Part shown: piece by piece, positions 10,766 through 19,550 of the stretch
Position numbering within the stretch: the stretch's first letter is position 1
Layout of the letters: every line of letters begins with the position of its first letter
Origin: the human T2T-CHM13v2.0 reference genome, Homo sapiens
Length of the DNA stretch: 64,000 bases
Direction: 5' to 3' (one strand)
NCBI RefSeq assembly: GCF_009914755.1
Contig: NC_060947.1
The notes under the pieces: generated by a model
The model's input: only the letters and a program-made list of their open reading frames with translations
What the model was told of the DNA's origin: nothing
Database searches by the model: none
Made by a program: the position numbers and the translations under genes

Positions 10766-11699
10766 TATTGTGGGTGTAAATGAGGCCTGAGGGGAGATGG
10801 ACCCCAACATCTGAGGACAAAATGGGCAGATCCTGTCTATCCCCTGAGAGGTGGTGTTCCTGCTCCATGGCTGGCGTCAGGAGCACAGGATAGAGGATTT
10901 CCCACCAGACAATCTCCACAAACAGGCCTGAGGGAGCCTCTGGAGCCTCCAGGATAGAAGGCAAGACCTGGAGCCCAGGGGAGGTTCTGCAGGAAGGAGG
11001 CCGCCTATGCTGTGTGGTCCACACCAGCAGGCCAGGGCACTGCGAGCCTGTGTGCAGGAGTCAGGGACACTCACGCGACTCCCACTTCCCACAGCACTCT
11101 GCTTCACTTGTGAGTCTTTTTTTTTTTTTTTGCCTGAGAGTGTATAAAACGTTAAGTGTATGTTTTAATGACAAGCAATAAGCTGCACGTTCATGTAACA
11201 ACCATATAGTTCAAGGTCGATCACCATCCCAGAAGTCCCCAGGGTCCCTTCTCAATCAGTGTGTTTTTCCTCACTGTCCCCCACCTTCCCCTTCTGCCTC
11301 TCTCTTCCATCCCAGTTCCTTTCTCATTCCTAAAGTCCTGCCTTCCCACTGGAAGTAGAAATGTCATGCTGGCCATGGTTCCTGTATTATCATAAATAAT
11401 TTCTACTGGCTGGCTGGCTGACTTTCAGTGTGGATGGCACCTTCCCTCCAGCTGTGGGCTCAAGCCCTGTGTCTCCCGTGGCACAATAGGAGGTCATCCC
11501 TCTTTTAGGAATTTCAGGTGTGAGCAGGAGAGCAGGCTCAGGGCACTTCTCTGAGCCTCAGGTCCTTCATCTGTGACATGGGAGAACCCCATCTCCCTCT
11601 CAGGTTGTGGGAGAAATAGAGATGGGGACACCAGGCACCTGTCAATGAGTGCCACATGTCAAAACCTTGGATGAGCCTTTCTTTACCATCACACATCCT

Positions 11700-12395
11700 T
11701 GAGATCCCAGACCCACCAGGTGCTTCCCCTGCTCCAGGGCTGTTGCACTTGCTGTTCCTTCTGCCTGGAATGCTCTTCCCTCAGGTAATTGCAAGGCCTG
11801 CTCCTCACTGCCTCCAGGTCTCTGCTCAGTCATCACCTCTCCAGGGATGCCTTCCCCACACACCCTGAATAAAATAACATCCTGCCCACTTACCCATTTA
11901 CCTGACCCTGTCTTAACTTTCTTTTTTTTTTTTTTTTTTTTTTTGAGACAAAATCTCACTCTGTCACCCAGGCTGGAGTGCAGTGGCGCGATTTTGGCTC
12001 ACTGCAAACTCCGCCTCCCGGGTTCAAGCAATTCTCATGCCTCAGCCTCCCAAGTAGCTGGGATTATAGGTGTCTGCCACCACGCCTGGCTAATTTTTGT
12101 ATTTTCAGTAGAGACGGGGTTTCATCATGTTGGCCAGGCTGGTTTCGAACTCCCAACCCCAGGTGATCTGCCCGCCTCGGCCTACCAAAGTGCTGGGATT
12201 ACAGGCATGAGCCACTGCGCCAGCCACTGTCTTAACTTTCTACGTAGCACTTACCACACTGTGATGTGCTATATATTTACTGACCAACTCTATGCTATCA
12301 GGGATGTTGTTGGTTTTGGTCTCTGTTGTATCTGCAGAACCTAGAACAGTACTCAAATATACAGCAGACGCTCAGGAAATTCTTGTTGAAGGATG
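11700..12395 (+). mobile_element. L2 3' fragment split by an Alu
   Basis: TTGCACTTGCTGTTCCTTCTGCCTGGAATGCTCTTCCC ... L2 terminal region. Confidence 0.75.
11921..12224 (-). mobile_element. AluS-type element
   Basis: Poly-T then antisense Alu; TSD CTGTCTTAACTTTCT. Confidence 0.95.
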
Positions 12396-12589
12396 GCTGG
12401 AGTGGGGCCCTTTACACACATTGCTAAGATGCACAGATGCCCTCCAAGATGGATATTGGCCCCATTTTACTGATTATGATACATACTGAGGTTCAAGGAG
12501 ACAAGTGACTTGCCCAATGTCACACAATCAAGACTTGGGGGCTCCAGGCTTTGAAATCATGTCTGCCAGCCTCCAAAACCCATAGTTCC

Positions 12590-13720
12590 TGGACCGAGAC
12601 CTCACAGCCAAAAAGGTAAGAAATTTCACTCCTGAGACACAGACTCCCAAACAGCTCAGATACTCAAAGACATCAAAAAGAGCTCACTAATCTCACAACC
12701 TGAAACAGACTCCAAAATCCCTGCACAGAGACCCCACAACTTGACACAGACCCCCAAACAGAACAGAGACCACACATGCTGTGACAAAGACCCCCACACA
12801 CAACAGACCAAAGTTCTCACTCCTGGGAAACAAATTAAAACCATTCAGATATCTCACACCCTAGACAGAGACCCCCCCCAAACCACTCAGACACCTCCCA
12901 ACCTAATACAAAACAGAAACAGAAGTTCAAGTAGCTCAGAAACATCACATAATCTTAAGATAAAGTCCCCAGACAAATCAGAGAACCTACATTCTGGGCA
13001 GAGACCCCTCCCTCCTCCAAACAGCTCAGATACTTTATACCTTAAGCAAAATTGTCCTCACCAACACCAGCTGGGAAACATCACAACTTGGGACCCAGAA
13101 TTGCAAACAGCTCAGAGACTTCACATCCTGGGGTGCAGACACCTACATAGAGCTCTCACACCCAGGGACACAAATGTCCAAAAAGCTCAGAAGATGCACA
13201 CCCAGGCCAGGCGTGGTGGCTCATGTCTGTAATCCCAGCACTTTGGGAGACCGAGGTGGGAGGATCACTTGAGGCCAGGAGTTCAAAAACAGCCTGATCA
13301 ACATAGCGAGACTCCATATCTACAAAATAAAAAATAAAAAACTTAGCCGGGCATGGTGGTGAGCACCTATAGTCGCAGCTACTCGGGAGGCTGAGGCGGG
13401 AGGATAGCTTGAGCCTAGGAGTATGAGGCTGCAGTGAGCCATGATCAGCCACTGCACTCCAGCCTGGGCGACAGAGTGAGACTCTGAAAACAAACAAGAG
13501 AAAAGAAAAGAAGGCATATCCAGACACATAGGCACACAAAATCCACTGAGATAAAATATCCCATTCAGACACAATCTGGACCCCAAACGGCCCAGAGTGA
13601 TCAAATACACCCAAACAGCATCTGAGATGTCATGCCTAAAGATACACATCCCCGAAACTGCTTCACCCGCATTACTTCCTAGGCAAACACCAAACAAGCT
13701 CAGAGACCGCTCCCTGGACA
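12590..13720. repeat. Degenerate ~39-bp A/C-rich tandem array (array 1), split by an Alu
   Basis: Recurring GACACAGAC(C/T)CCCAAACAGCTCAGA(G/T)AC-type units, e.g. at 12636, 12743, 13104. Confidence 0.7.
13205..13510 (+). mobile_element. AluJ-type element
   Basis: Dimer, TTGAGGCCAGGAGTTC diagnostic. Confidence 0.9.
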
Positions 13721-17419: not shown

Positions 17420-17716
17420 ATCCTGATATATGAGCAGCTCGGAGACCTAACCTTCTGGACAAAGACCTCCCACAAAAATGTTCAAAGATCTCATGCCTTA
17501 GGACAGTGCCCACAAGCAGTTCAGAGACCTCTCACCCTAGACACCAACCACCAAACAGCTCAAAGATGCCACACCTCAGGACACAGACCCCCAACCAGCT
17601 CAGAGAATTCCTACCTCAAGGTAACAGCTCACAATAACTCAAGGACCTCACACACCAACCCACAAAGAGCTTACCAGCTACACCCTGGTACACATACCCA
17701 CAAAGAATCAGCTCAG
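17420..17716. repeat. Degenerate ~39-bp A/C-rich tandem array (array 2)
   Basis: CAGCTC-like cores at 17435, 17478, 17517, 17556, 17596, 17635 (spacing 39-43 bp); same consensus as array 1. Confidence 0.75.
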
Positions 17717-18892
17717 GGCTGCTGTGTGATGCTGAATCTCTGTGCCATCCAACACTGTTATGGGGAGGCCTTGGATCTTGTAGTTCCCCACAGTCTGCAG
17801 TCACCACCGTTGTTGTCATGAGGAAGGCAGGTTCACACCAGGGATGGGGAAGGACCCTCTGGGACTGAGGGGATCAGAGAGTAAGCTCTCATATCTGGCT
17901 CCCAGGAATGGCCATCGTCTGACCAACCCTGATCACCTTTGGTCCTGGTGACTTTTGTATCTTGCCCCATGGGGGCTTCAGGGTAAATCCCAGAACACAG
18001 TAGGAGACCCCTAGACCCCGTTATCTTTGCCATCTCTCAGCACCCACTGTGGGGAACTGGATCTTGGAGAGAGAGTAGAGGTCCTCCCTTCACACTGCCA
18101 ATGGCAACCCCCATTATGGCCCTTCTGAGCATTCTGGTCCTTTCTCCCAAACTTCCTCTCCAATTGGCAGCTGCCACACCTCCTCTCTCTCCCCAGCTCC
18201 CCACCCTTGTGAGCCACCAGGGCTCCCCTTCCACCACGGACCTCTACCTCCCTACCCCAGCCCTAGTCATGGGGCCTCAGTTATACCCTCTCACGCCCAC
18301 TTCGGTCCTCTCACCCGGCACCTAGGCCTACCTCAGAGGACCCCCTCAGGACCCTCCCTGCACTTCCTGAAAGTGCAGACCATTTTGCAGGACAGATATC
18401 TCTCCTGCCCCCACACAGGTTTCTGTCACAACATCCCTGTTAGGGCAGAACTGGAAATGTCTCCCAGATCCAGATGAAACTCCAGACCCAGACTGAGAGT
18501 CCAGGGCAATTCGCCTAGGGCTGGAGGGGGCGGGGTGGGATTCCTGAAGGAGGCGCTGGGGTGAGTGTCACCTCAGGAGATGGGAGGACACTGCCCAGCT
18601 GGGTCTGTGAGGACAGAGAAGGGACCCTGGGAGGGACAGGGGCAGCATGAGCGCTGGGAGTGTCCCAACTGCGGTCCTCCGGGAATTGTCATCTGGCCCC
18701 AGCTCTGCCCCACCCTGGTTGGAGGGCCCCAGCCAGGGATCTGCCTTCTTGGCGCTCCAGTGTCCTCATCAGCGACAGAGGTGACAGGGCTTTCTTCCAA
18801 AGGTGCTAGTGGGGATTAAATGAGATGGCACATAAGAAAGAAGTGCTTGGGACACTGCAAGTCAGATCTGTGATGACCTAAAACTTAGAGCC

Positions 18893-19550
18893 CTGCGCAC
18901 TGAGCGCCAGATGACCCCTTGCGAGTGGTCTCACTTAAGCCCTGCCTGTGACTTGGGAAGCATCTTTAGCCTCATACTGAACAACAGTCCAAGTCTTGAA
19001 GACTGGATCCCACTGGTCATCCAGTCCTTAAAGCCCAGGCTCCGCTTTACGAACTTCCGCCCATCAGCCACTGTGCCTGACCGTGCGCGAGCGCGAAGAC
19101 CCAGGGACCCGGCTCTACGAGTGCATCCCGCTGTACTCTGTAAGAGCCGCACTCTCTAGGTGAGCTTCCCAGAGCGGTCCTTGATGCCTTCCTGCCTTGA
19201 TCGTCCCACAACCGATCGACTGCCCCTTTGCAGGTTCCTAATTTATTCAGATCTGTAGAACGGAGACGGGCGTGGCCAAAAATGGGACTAGAGGGGTCTC
19301 CGAGAAGTCGGAGAATGGGTGTCAGCTTGGGCCTGGGTGGAAACCAGGAGGACGGATTGCCGCCTGGGGCGCTCGCCGCCGCGCCCGCCCTACTGTCGAA
19401 AGGTGGGGCTGATTTCGTTGGTGGGCGGGGGTGGGCTTTATTGTCCCTCCACACACAGCATTTGTATTCTTACAAAATAGAAGCTCCCTTCCCCTATGGT
19501 ATCTCGCATAATGGTGTGTTCATTTCCGGTACCCGCAATGGTATGTTACA
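18893..19550. promoter_or_regulatory. CpG-rich promoter-like element (copy 2, paralog of 13755-14450)
   Basis: Retained CpGs, GC boxes near 19380-19430, ETS-like ACTTCCGC at 19053; collinear sequence anchors to copy 1. Confidence 0.6.

What the first reader, a model, noticed from the sequence alone, without database searches (positions are those of the whole stretch)
10800..19550. Cryptic ancient ~5 kb tandem duplication of a whole regulatory module
Seen: collinear anchors at near-constant offsets between unique sequences. CpG elements: AGCGCCAGA 13762/18903, GAACTTC 13947/19051, GTGCCTG 13969/19073, GCGAAGA 14008/19093, GCACTCTC 14077/19149, TGCCCCTTTGC 14150/19221, TGTAGAA 14183/19254, CAAAAT(G/A)GA 14346/19473 (offsets 5071-5141). 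Upstream block: GCTGTG 11451/17036, TGTCTCC 11470/17056, TCCCTCTT 11497/17092, GTGTGAGCA 11518/17110, TCATCTG 11567/17150 (offsets 5583-5595). Each copy also has the same 39-bp array, and a minus-strand GTGAG donor at a paralogous position (13817/18934). Inference: the duplication predates the Alus, which are copy-specific, and is too diverged for segmental-duplication tracks. Both copies kept their CpGs, suggesting two unmethylated paralogous promoters: tandem alternative promoters, or the remains of a lost gene pair.
Basis: partly seen in the sequence, partly recalled or inferred. Interest (0 to 1): 0.7.

Follow-up and report, generated by a model that had tools for sequence, protein, structure and literature searches.

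The report
Ancient Xp11 promoter-cassette duplicon family
Two CpG-rich elements 5 kb apart at the start of the human X gene FAM156A are old related copies, but a third equally related copy lies 4 Mb away beside SUV39H1 and their flank matches the tail ends of the SSX genes, so they are likely members of an old X-chromosome duplication family that probably handed the same promoter to unrelated genes.

Summary
All 13 anchors are at the stated places. The two CpG elements are true homologues (about 63% identity, z=11), and both sit to the right of a diverged 39-bp array. A whole 5-kb duplication is not shown. Only the array, the CpG core and its right flank align, and the 'upstream block' is not significant (z=2.0; part of it is a dispersed MIR-like repeat). 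The pair is not unique. A third CpG-rich copy lies 4.13 Mb away, 37 kb 3' of the SUV39H1 Pre-SET exon, and is as close to each copy (62-64%) as they are to each other. The right flank matches the 3' ends of 17 SSX-family units. The 39-bp array forms much larger arrays at X 48.12-48.14 and 49.10-49.11 Mb. Copy A is an annotated FAM156A first exon with three CCAAT boxes. Copy B has no CCAAT box and no annotated exon, and its left half is the published ~50%-methylated candidate ICR_1424. Verdict: an old Xp11 low-copy duplicon carrying a promoter cassette, likely pre-primate; A is an annotated promoter, B likely a rewired or decaying one. Not found described in nine paper searches.

The parts
10666..11073 (.). 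U block of the duplicon; starts in a MIR-like piece. Copies at window -15,555..-15,169 (and its inverted twin by FAM156B) and at X 48.14, 48.70, 49.10 and 51.62 Mb
   Evidence: z=43.5 vs the -15.5 kb copy; z=77 vs L045; genome search gives 5 hits, all on chrX 48.1-52.3 Mb
11451..11619 (+). Not shown to be paralogous to 17,036-17,175
   Evidence: z=2.0; a profile trained outside 10.5-20.5 kb hits 11,545-11,619 at E 1.7e-7 among 45 dispersed hits; a dispersed copy at 62,620 scores higher against it than copy B does
12434..12720 (.). Second, partial U block directly before array A
   Evidence: 75.7% to 10,658-10,763; E 1.5e-10 to L045 879-1099; E 3e-12 to L048
12599..13720 (.). 39-bp diverged array A, split by an Alu at 13,198-13,517; lies in intron 1 of the distal FAM156A transcripts
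   Evidence: 14 units found by a matrix trained on distant arrays; Alu interval
13818..13984 (-). Annotated FAM156A alternative first exon (also 13,927-13,984); donor at 13,817
   Evidence: RefSeq table added to the finding; donor read directly
13847..14239 (-). CpG core A: first exon plus promoter, with CCAAT at 13,990, 14,092 and 14,141 and a GC box at 14,121
   Evidence: 42 CpG, observed/expected 0.72 over 13,720-14,440
14229..14423 (.). F block A, homologous to the 3' flank of SSX genes
   Evidence: E 4e-7; z=10.4
15735..16124 (.). P block; follows the array directly in the module at -13,919..-13,557
   Evidence: z=35.3, 62%
17421..17659 (.). 39-bp array B
   Evidence: 6 units; E 1e-8 to array A
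18672..19082 (.). Candidate imprint control region ICR_1424 (hg38 chrX:53,000,159-53,000,569): left half of element B, with a MIR-like piece at 18,734-18,826 and the GTGAG at 18,934
   Evidence: 4,687 bp from the FAM156A start in the paper's table; both mapped ends fall on CpGs
18953..19305 (-). CpG core B: no CCAAT box, no annotated exon, CpG-dense from 19,082
   Evidence: 34 CpG, observed/expected 0.74 over 18,890-19,420
19334..19651 (.). F block B, homologous to the SSX 3' flank and to the X 48.148 Mb copy
   Evidence: z=10.2 and 7.8
20138..20967 (-). D block: homologue of the distal SSX terminal exon and flank, GT microsatellite included; an Alu at 19,777-20,104 separates it from F
   Evidence: z=63, 71% to L047; z=55 to L045; 17 of 18 SSX-cluster hits lie 1.1-1.6 kb from an SSXRD exon
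22523..22804 (.). E block, also from the SSX 3' flank but out of order relative to F and D
   Evidence: E about 1e-14; z=38.9, 74%

Best explanation
The two CpG elements are copies of one old cassette (39-bp array, first exon with CpG promoter, SSX-like 3' flank) that has at least one more full copy 4 Mb away and pieces across Xp11, and that likely spread by repeated duplication before the primate Alu expansion. Shown: block homologies, shared order and orientation, three roughly equidistant CpG cores, copy-specific Alus, and copy A as an annotated FAM156A first exon. Inferred: copy A works as a CCAAT/GC-box promoter firing leftward, with the array in intron 1. The copy beside SUV39H1 likely drives the human SUV39H1 antisense RNA. 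Copy B lost its CCAAT boxes and is likely a weak, rewired or partly methylated element rather than a full second promoter. A and B may have arisen by a local tandem event, but in the same old period as the distant copy. Age is inferred at roughly 80-130 million years, from 0.31-0.53 substitutions per site and a recalled neutral rate.
For: A-B core z=11. Third core at X:48,147,617-48,148,166: z=23.5 vs A and 14.6 vs B, 62-64% identity, 47 CpG at o/e 0.88, two of A's CCAAT boxes and the GC box kept. That locus has the order U, array, core, F, D, array. Three-way site counts 67/64/59 and the F-block tree B+X48 vs A+SSX. 15 of 21 genome-wide array-motif hits are on chrX 48.0-52.3 Mb, reversed control 0. 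U block: 5 of 5 hits on Xp11. D block: 20 of 21 hits on chrX, self included, and 17 of the 18 cluster hits pair with SSXRD exons. SUV39H1 Pre-SET exon at X:48,110,824 on +; the third core lies 37 kb 3' of it and faces it if read like A. Mouse Suv39h1as starts from two promoters 3' of Suv39h1 and is said to be conserved in humans (PMC9303268).
Against: No expression, CAGE or chromatin data could be examined. The human SUV39H1 antisense start site was not read from any call (the paper's figure is not held), so its match to the third core is inferred. The mouse promoter is about 27 kb from the Suv39h1 promoter, nearer than the human core, and human SUV39H1 antisense RNA can also start in GATA1. 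The CpG core was not found beside the two SSX 3' ends fetched (z 0-1.2). The tree rests on 259 columns of very diverged DNA, with support below the tool's star level. Genome searches are word-based and missed even the A-B pair, so copy numbers are lower bounds and autosomal copies could be missed; one 7-unit array is on chr9. No repeat library was available to rule out a named old transposon for the core.
Confidence: 0.68

Rival explanations
1. A single local tandem duplication made A and B as sisters; the distant copies come from a separate earlier event, and most of the 5-kb unit has decayed beyond detection.
For: Adjacent, same orientation, array before core in both. A and B share a gap against the third copy next to the 11-bp anchor. 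Sites shared by A+B are slightly the most common, 67 vs 64 and 59.
Against: No excess A-B identity (0.51 vs 0.50 and 0.53). The F blocks do not align directly (z=-0.2) and the tree separates A from B. The U and P blocks flank A and match the -15 kb module, not B. Offsets vary from 3.9 to 5.6 kb.
Confidence: 0.2
2. The core is an unrecognised or named old dispersed repeat inserted independently, and the shared array and MIR-like pieces give a false look of duplication.
For: The upstream block and parts of U and D are dispersed repeats. The array occurs at several loci, including chr9.
Against: Two core patterns each hit only 2 places genome-wide, all among the three known copies. A three-copy profile finds no fourth core in the 264 kb and 20 other loci searched. 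Several different blocks travel together in the same order.
Confidence: 0.07
3. B is a fully active second alternative promoter of FAM156A that splices from the 18,934 donor into the same downstream exons.
For: CpG o/e 0.88 at 19,084-19,420 and GC boxes at 19,057, 19,385 and 19,423; GTGAG at a compatible place.
Against: None of the 22 RefSeq transcripts starts there (table in the finding). No CCAAT box. The donor lies inside a region called ~50% methylated.
Confidence: 0.2
4. The region is the wreck of a pair of SSX-like genes, and the CpG elements are their leftovers.
For: SSX 3'-end homology at 14.2-14.4, 19.3-21.0 and 22.5-22.8 kb.
Against: No SSXRD hit in the window. The SSX last coding exon, intron and first half of the terminal exon give no hit at E<=1 in 264 kb. 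The cores lie beyond the SSX 3' end, not at its 5' end.
Confidence: 0.1

Closest known systems
Human segmental duplications and core duplicons (definition recalled: at least 1 kb at 90% or more)
   Same: Mosaic blocks copied in tandem and at a distance on one chromosome arm, carrying promoter and exon pieces
   Different: 62-74% identity, far below the cut-off; older than the Alus; the shared cargo is a non-coding promoter cassette and a 39-bp array
Duplicated alternative first exons of X-linked gene families, e.g. MAGEA4 (recalled, no call)
   Same: Repeated promoter plus non-coding first exon units upstream of a distant coding exon
   Different: Only copy A is annotated as used; B lost its CCAAT boxes; an equally close copy serves another locus 4 Mb away
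SSX gene family repeat unit (Xp11.23 and Xp11.22 clusters)
   Same: Shares the distal terminal exon and 3' flank (F, D, E blocks)
   Different: No SSXRD exon here; the two SSX units fetched lack the CpG core and the array
Suv39h1as / Gm14820 promoter (PMC9303268)
   Same: Promoter 3' of Suv39h1 facing back at it; the third CpG copy has that position and orientation in human
   Different: Identity of the human start site and orthology with the mouse promoters were not tested; no paralogy to FAM156A in the passages read
Candidate imprint control regions of the human imprintome (PMC9665137)
   Same: ICR_1424 is the left half of element B
   Different: No parental origin assigned; on chrX, X inactivation or a CpG-island shore could give the same 50% (inference)

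Membership tests
Local tandem duplication of a 5-kb unit | Adjacent copies, same orientation, same block order | tested here: met
   array, core, F in both
Local tandem duplication of a 5-kb unit | Homology along most of the unit at a steady offset | tested here: not met
   7 of 34 tiles clear; offsets 3.9-5.6 kb; upstream block z=2.0
Local tandem duplication of a 5-kb unit | The two copies are each other's closest relatives | tested here: inconclusive
   star-like core, 67/64/59; F tree groups B with the distant copy at 92/92 on 259 columns
Segmental duplication (track definition, recalled) | At least 1 kb at 90% identity or more | tested here: not met
   63% over about 250-390 bp
Dispersed transposable element (for the CpG core) | Many copies on many chromosomes | tested here: not met
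   2 hits each for two patterns; word-based searches are insensitive, so this is a lower bound
Dispersed transposable element (for the CpG core) | Match to a Dfam/Repbase model, terminal repeats, target-site duplication | not testable with these tools
   no repeat library held; no genome-wide profile search available
Xp11 low-copy duplicon (proposed here) | Several unrelated blocks shared in the same order at distant loci | tested here: met
   U, array, core, F, D in L045; F and D in SSX units; U, array, P at -15 kb
Xp11 low-copy duplicon (proposed here) | Copies confined to one chromosome region | tested here: met
   U 5 of 5, D 20 of 21, array motif 15 of 21 on chrX 47.5-52.3 Mb; exception: one chr9 array
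Tandem alternative promoters | Each copy starts a transcript that splices to a shared exon | not testable with these tools
   A annotated, B not (RefSeq table); no CAGE or RNA data
Tandem alternative promoters | Promoter motifs kept in both copies | tested here: not met
   CCAAT 3 in A, 0 in B; GC boxes and CpG kept in both
Imprint control region (element B) | About 50% methylation in three germ layers | not testable with these tools
   taken from the listing as ICR_1424 in PMC9665137
Imprint control region (element B) | Parent-of-origin methylation in gametes | not testable with these tools
   field empty for ICR_1424
SSX pseudogene | SSXRD or other SSX coding exon remnant | tested here: not met
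   the KRAB-like 5' exons were not searched

The most novel reading that the evidence does not exclude
An undescribed pre-primate duplicon of Xp11 carried a ready-made promoter cassette (CCAAT/GC-box CpG promoter, first exon, intronic 39-bp satellite) around the arm. It gave FAM156A its distal promoter, the SUV39H1-repressing antisense RNA its promoter and the SSX family its 3' end, and left copy B as an orphan, half-methylated paralogue. The three CpG copies would be a natural experiment in how CCAAT loss changes methylation and activity.
Probability: 0.45. Interest if true: 0.6.

Novelty: new member of a known kind. Interest (0 to 1): 0.42.

Why it matters
It would give a common origin to regulatory pieces now treated as unrelated: the FAM156A distal promoter, the likely promoter of the SUV39H1 antisense RNA (whose mouse counterpart tunes H3K9 methylation in stem cells, PMC9303268), the SSX 3' ends, and a candidate X-linked imprint region. 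It also points to a 39-bp satellite family with arrays spanning about 10-20 kb that Tandem Repeats Finder largely misses. Three equally old copies with 3, 2 and 0 of the aligned CCAAT boxes make the link between motif loss and CpG methylation testable in public data. The mechanism itself (old duplication and promoter reuse) is of a known kind.

Tried and rejected
Genome-wide DNA searches with core A, core B, array A and the window's D block found only the query itself, so that tool is too insensitive to show uniqueness. The P block search gave only three short hits (64-77 bp) on chr2, 3 and 5 over an AG-rich part. The upstream block as part of the duplication was rejected: z=2.0, and its 5' part alone is reached by 4.7% of 1,482 random pieces. 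Copy B's block carries the shared motif with 3 mismatches but was not hit by the dispersed-repeat profile at E 0.01, so its MIR-like nature is less sure than A's. P as a decayed third core was rejected: z -1.5 to 3.1, with only a 30-bp match. 17,710-18,860 and 14,430-15,000 matched nothing else held beyond a MIR-like piece. The 80% U copy at X 48.70 Mb has no array cluster or core in the 6 kb fetched. No SSX coding remnant was found. A model built from the three cores was never run genome-wide, so further cores remain possible. In the 264-kb comparisons, hits in the inverted twin arm (-107 to -53.4 kb) were dropped before listing. Paper searches showed no description of this duplicon or array; most hits were seen as listings only.
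Full report
Observation. All 13 anchor pairs are at the stated coordinates. The CpG cores align at 13,938-14,189 vs 19,042-19,260 with z=11 against 200 dinucleotide shuffles (131 identities, 77 mismatches, 55 gap columns); the reverse strand gives z=1.2. 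nhmmer extends the match to 13,847-14,239 vs 18,953-19,305. The upstream block gives z=2.0, below the shuffle maximum. Its right part in copy A is a dispersed repeat: a profile trained outside 10.5-20.5 kb has 45 hits on both strands, autosomal loci included, and hits 11,545-11,619. A dispersed copy at 62,620 scores 2015 against A, above B's 1779. The name MIR is recalled; no repeat library was available. In a scan of 34 tiles, 7 clearly beat all 20 null stretches, and these are the array and the core. So two or three blocks are paralogous, not a whole 5-kb unit.

More copies nearby. I compared the region with 264 kb of its surroundings. A third array lies at window -15,058..-14,008 inside FAM156A, with an inverted twin by FAM156B. 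It is flanked by a U block matching 10,693-11,073 (z=43.5) and a P block matching 15,735-16,124 (z=35.3). U and P flank copy A and have no match near copy B, and this third module has no CpG core.

More copies far away. A 23-letter array pattern hits 21 places genome-wide. Fifteen are on chrX at 48.01, 48.12-48.14, 48.18, 49.10-49.11 and 52.28 Mb; the reversed control has 0 hits. The distant arrays have the same 38-40 period. A matrix from 153 distant units finds 12+2 units in A, 6 in B, 16 in the third module, 31 in L045, 6 at X 48.01 Mb and 7 on chr9. L045 (X:48,140,701-48,150,700) holds U (z=77), arrays, a CpG-rich core (z=23.5 vs A, 14.6 vs B) and a match to 20,138-20,745 (z=55), in the window's order and orientation. 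The three cores are about equidistant: corrected distances 0.51, 0.50 and 0.53, and shared-site counts A+B 67, B+X 64, A+X 59. U has 5 genome hits, all on Xp11, at 100, 97, 80, 77 and 69%.

Link to SSX. The L045 query hits 18 places at 79-83% in two clusters at 47.53-47.85 and 51.92-52.08 Mb, plus itself, one at 49.10 Mb and one short chr8 hit. Seventeen of the 18 lie 1.1-1.6 kb 3' of an SSXRD (PF09514) exon. Two such units were fetched. They align to 14,229-14,423 and 19,334-19,651 (same place, z about 10 each), to 20,141-20,967 (z=63, 71%, GT microsatellite included) and to 22,523-22,804 (z=39). A five-row tree of this flank groups B with the L045 copy and A with SSX, support 92/92 on 259 columns; this is weak, but it does not favour A and B as sisters. 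The SSX units lack the core. The window lacks the SSXRD exon and the first half of the terminal exon.

Function. Copy A overlaps the annotated FAM156A first exons 13,818-13,984 and 13,927-13,984 (RefSeq table in the finding). It has CCAAT at 13,990, 14,092 and 14,141 and a GC box at 14,121. The L045 copy keeps two of these CCAAT boxes and the GC box; B has no CCAAT but keeps its CpGs. I infer that A is a CCAAT/GC-box promoter firing leftward, with the array in intron 1. For B, the supplement of PMC9665137 lists ICR_1424 at hg38 chrX:53,000,159-53,000,569, 4,687 bp from FAM156A, with no parental origin. This maps to window 18,672-19,082, and both ends fall on CpGs. The criterion is 50+-15% methylation in embryonic brain, liver and kidney from embryos of both sexes, so X inactivation or an island shore may explain it (inference). 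PMC13286735 lists the same region among blood DMRs in liver cancer. The dense CpG part of B (19,084-19,420, o/e 0.88) lies outside the call and may be unmethylated. The SUV39H1 Pre-SET exon is at X:48,110,824 on + (gene name inferred from the chrX hit). The L045 core lies 37 kb 3' of it and faces it if read like A. Mouse Suv39h1as starts from two promoters 3' of Suv39h1 and is said to be conserved in humans (PMC9303268). I could not see the human coordinates. I recall a GENCODE lncRNA starting near this spot, but no call confirms it. A preprint shows that human SUV39H1 antisense RNA can also start in GATA1. The promoter assignment is therefore likely, not shown.

Age. Block distances are 0.31-0.53 substitutions per site. 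Alus sit at copy-specific places: inside array A, between F and D in B, inside D in the SSX units, and absent there in L045. MIR-like and L2-like pieces (names recalled) are shared within U and D. With a recalled neutral rate near 2e-9 per site per year, this gives roughly 80-130 million years; no other mammal could be examined.

Known systems and novelty. It works like an old segmental-duplication mosaic with promoter reuse, and resembles duplicated first exons of X-linked families (MAGEA4, recalled). It fails the identity test for a segmental duplication, the whole-unit test for a 5-kb tandem, the copy-number test for a transposon (lower bound only) and the coding test for an SSX pseudogene. 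Nine paper searches showed no description; the library lacks most subscription journals. Papers seen: PMC9665137 passages and two supplement rows; PMC13286735 one passage; PMC9303268 passages, section 13 and two supplement passages; 10.1101/2024.11.08.622131 passages; PMC2588610 passages, which list no 39-bp Xp11 array; PMC12417820 passages, where FAM156A is a FOXR2 promoter donor; PMC9174258 one passage. All others were seen as listings only.

Verdict. Observation partly confirmed, interpretation partly supported. Best reading: an old Xp11 low-copy duplicon carrying a promoter cassette, confidence 0.68. New member of a known kind, interest 0.42.

Noticed in passing
G000:C23:51,615,022-51,615,437 (-): A 97% copy of the U block, so a recent duplication covers 10.66-11.07 kb; it does not include array A or core A. 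Extent not mapped.
   Followed up: no
L048 (X:48,696,501-48,702,500): An 80% copy of 10,550-11,258 followed by other repeats and, on the other strand, a coding-like exon (PPP1R3F by recall). It also matches 8,675-8,801, at the edge of the RefSeq enhancer 8,172-8,751, at E 1e-4.
   Followed up: partly
L023 (C9:100,123,960-100,124,550): A 7-unit array of the same 39-bp family on chr9, the only autosomal array seen.
   Followed up: partly
L033-L039 and L041-L043 (X 48.120-48.141 and 49.103-49.113 Mb): Arrays of the 39-bp family spanning about 20 kb and 10 kb, sampled in 3-kb pieces; the 49.10 Mb site also has D and U pieces. In the window, Tandem Repeats Finder reports only 83 bp of array A.
   Followed up: partly
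window -107,000..0 (L003-L012): FAM156A/FAM156B inverted repeat with positions mapping x to -106,761-x, and twin CpG islands near -23 kb/-84 kb and -46 kb/-60 kb.
   Followed up: no
window -45,121..-42,938: Small local direct and inverted duplications at 71-90%, and a weak P-block match at -43,537..-43,965 in reverse, E 0.006.
   Followed up: no
window 12,599-13,720 and 17,421-17,659: Read on the transcribed (minus) strand, many array units carry a donor-like GTGAG and a G run; a role in splicing or protection from early cleavage is speculation.
   Followed up: no
window 43,393-44,908: A 1.5-kb AT-rich 13-bp tandem repeat, 115 copies.
   Followed up: no
window 40,501-42,000: CpG-rich stretch (o/e 0.53-0.60), partly Alu; not examined.
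   Followed up: no
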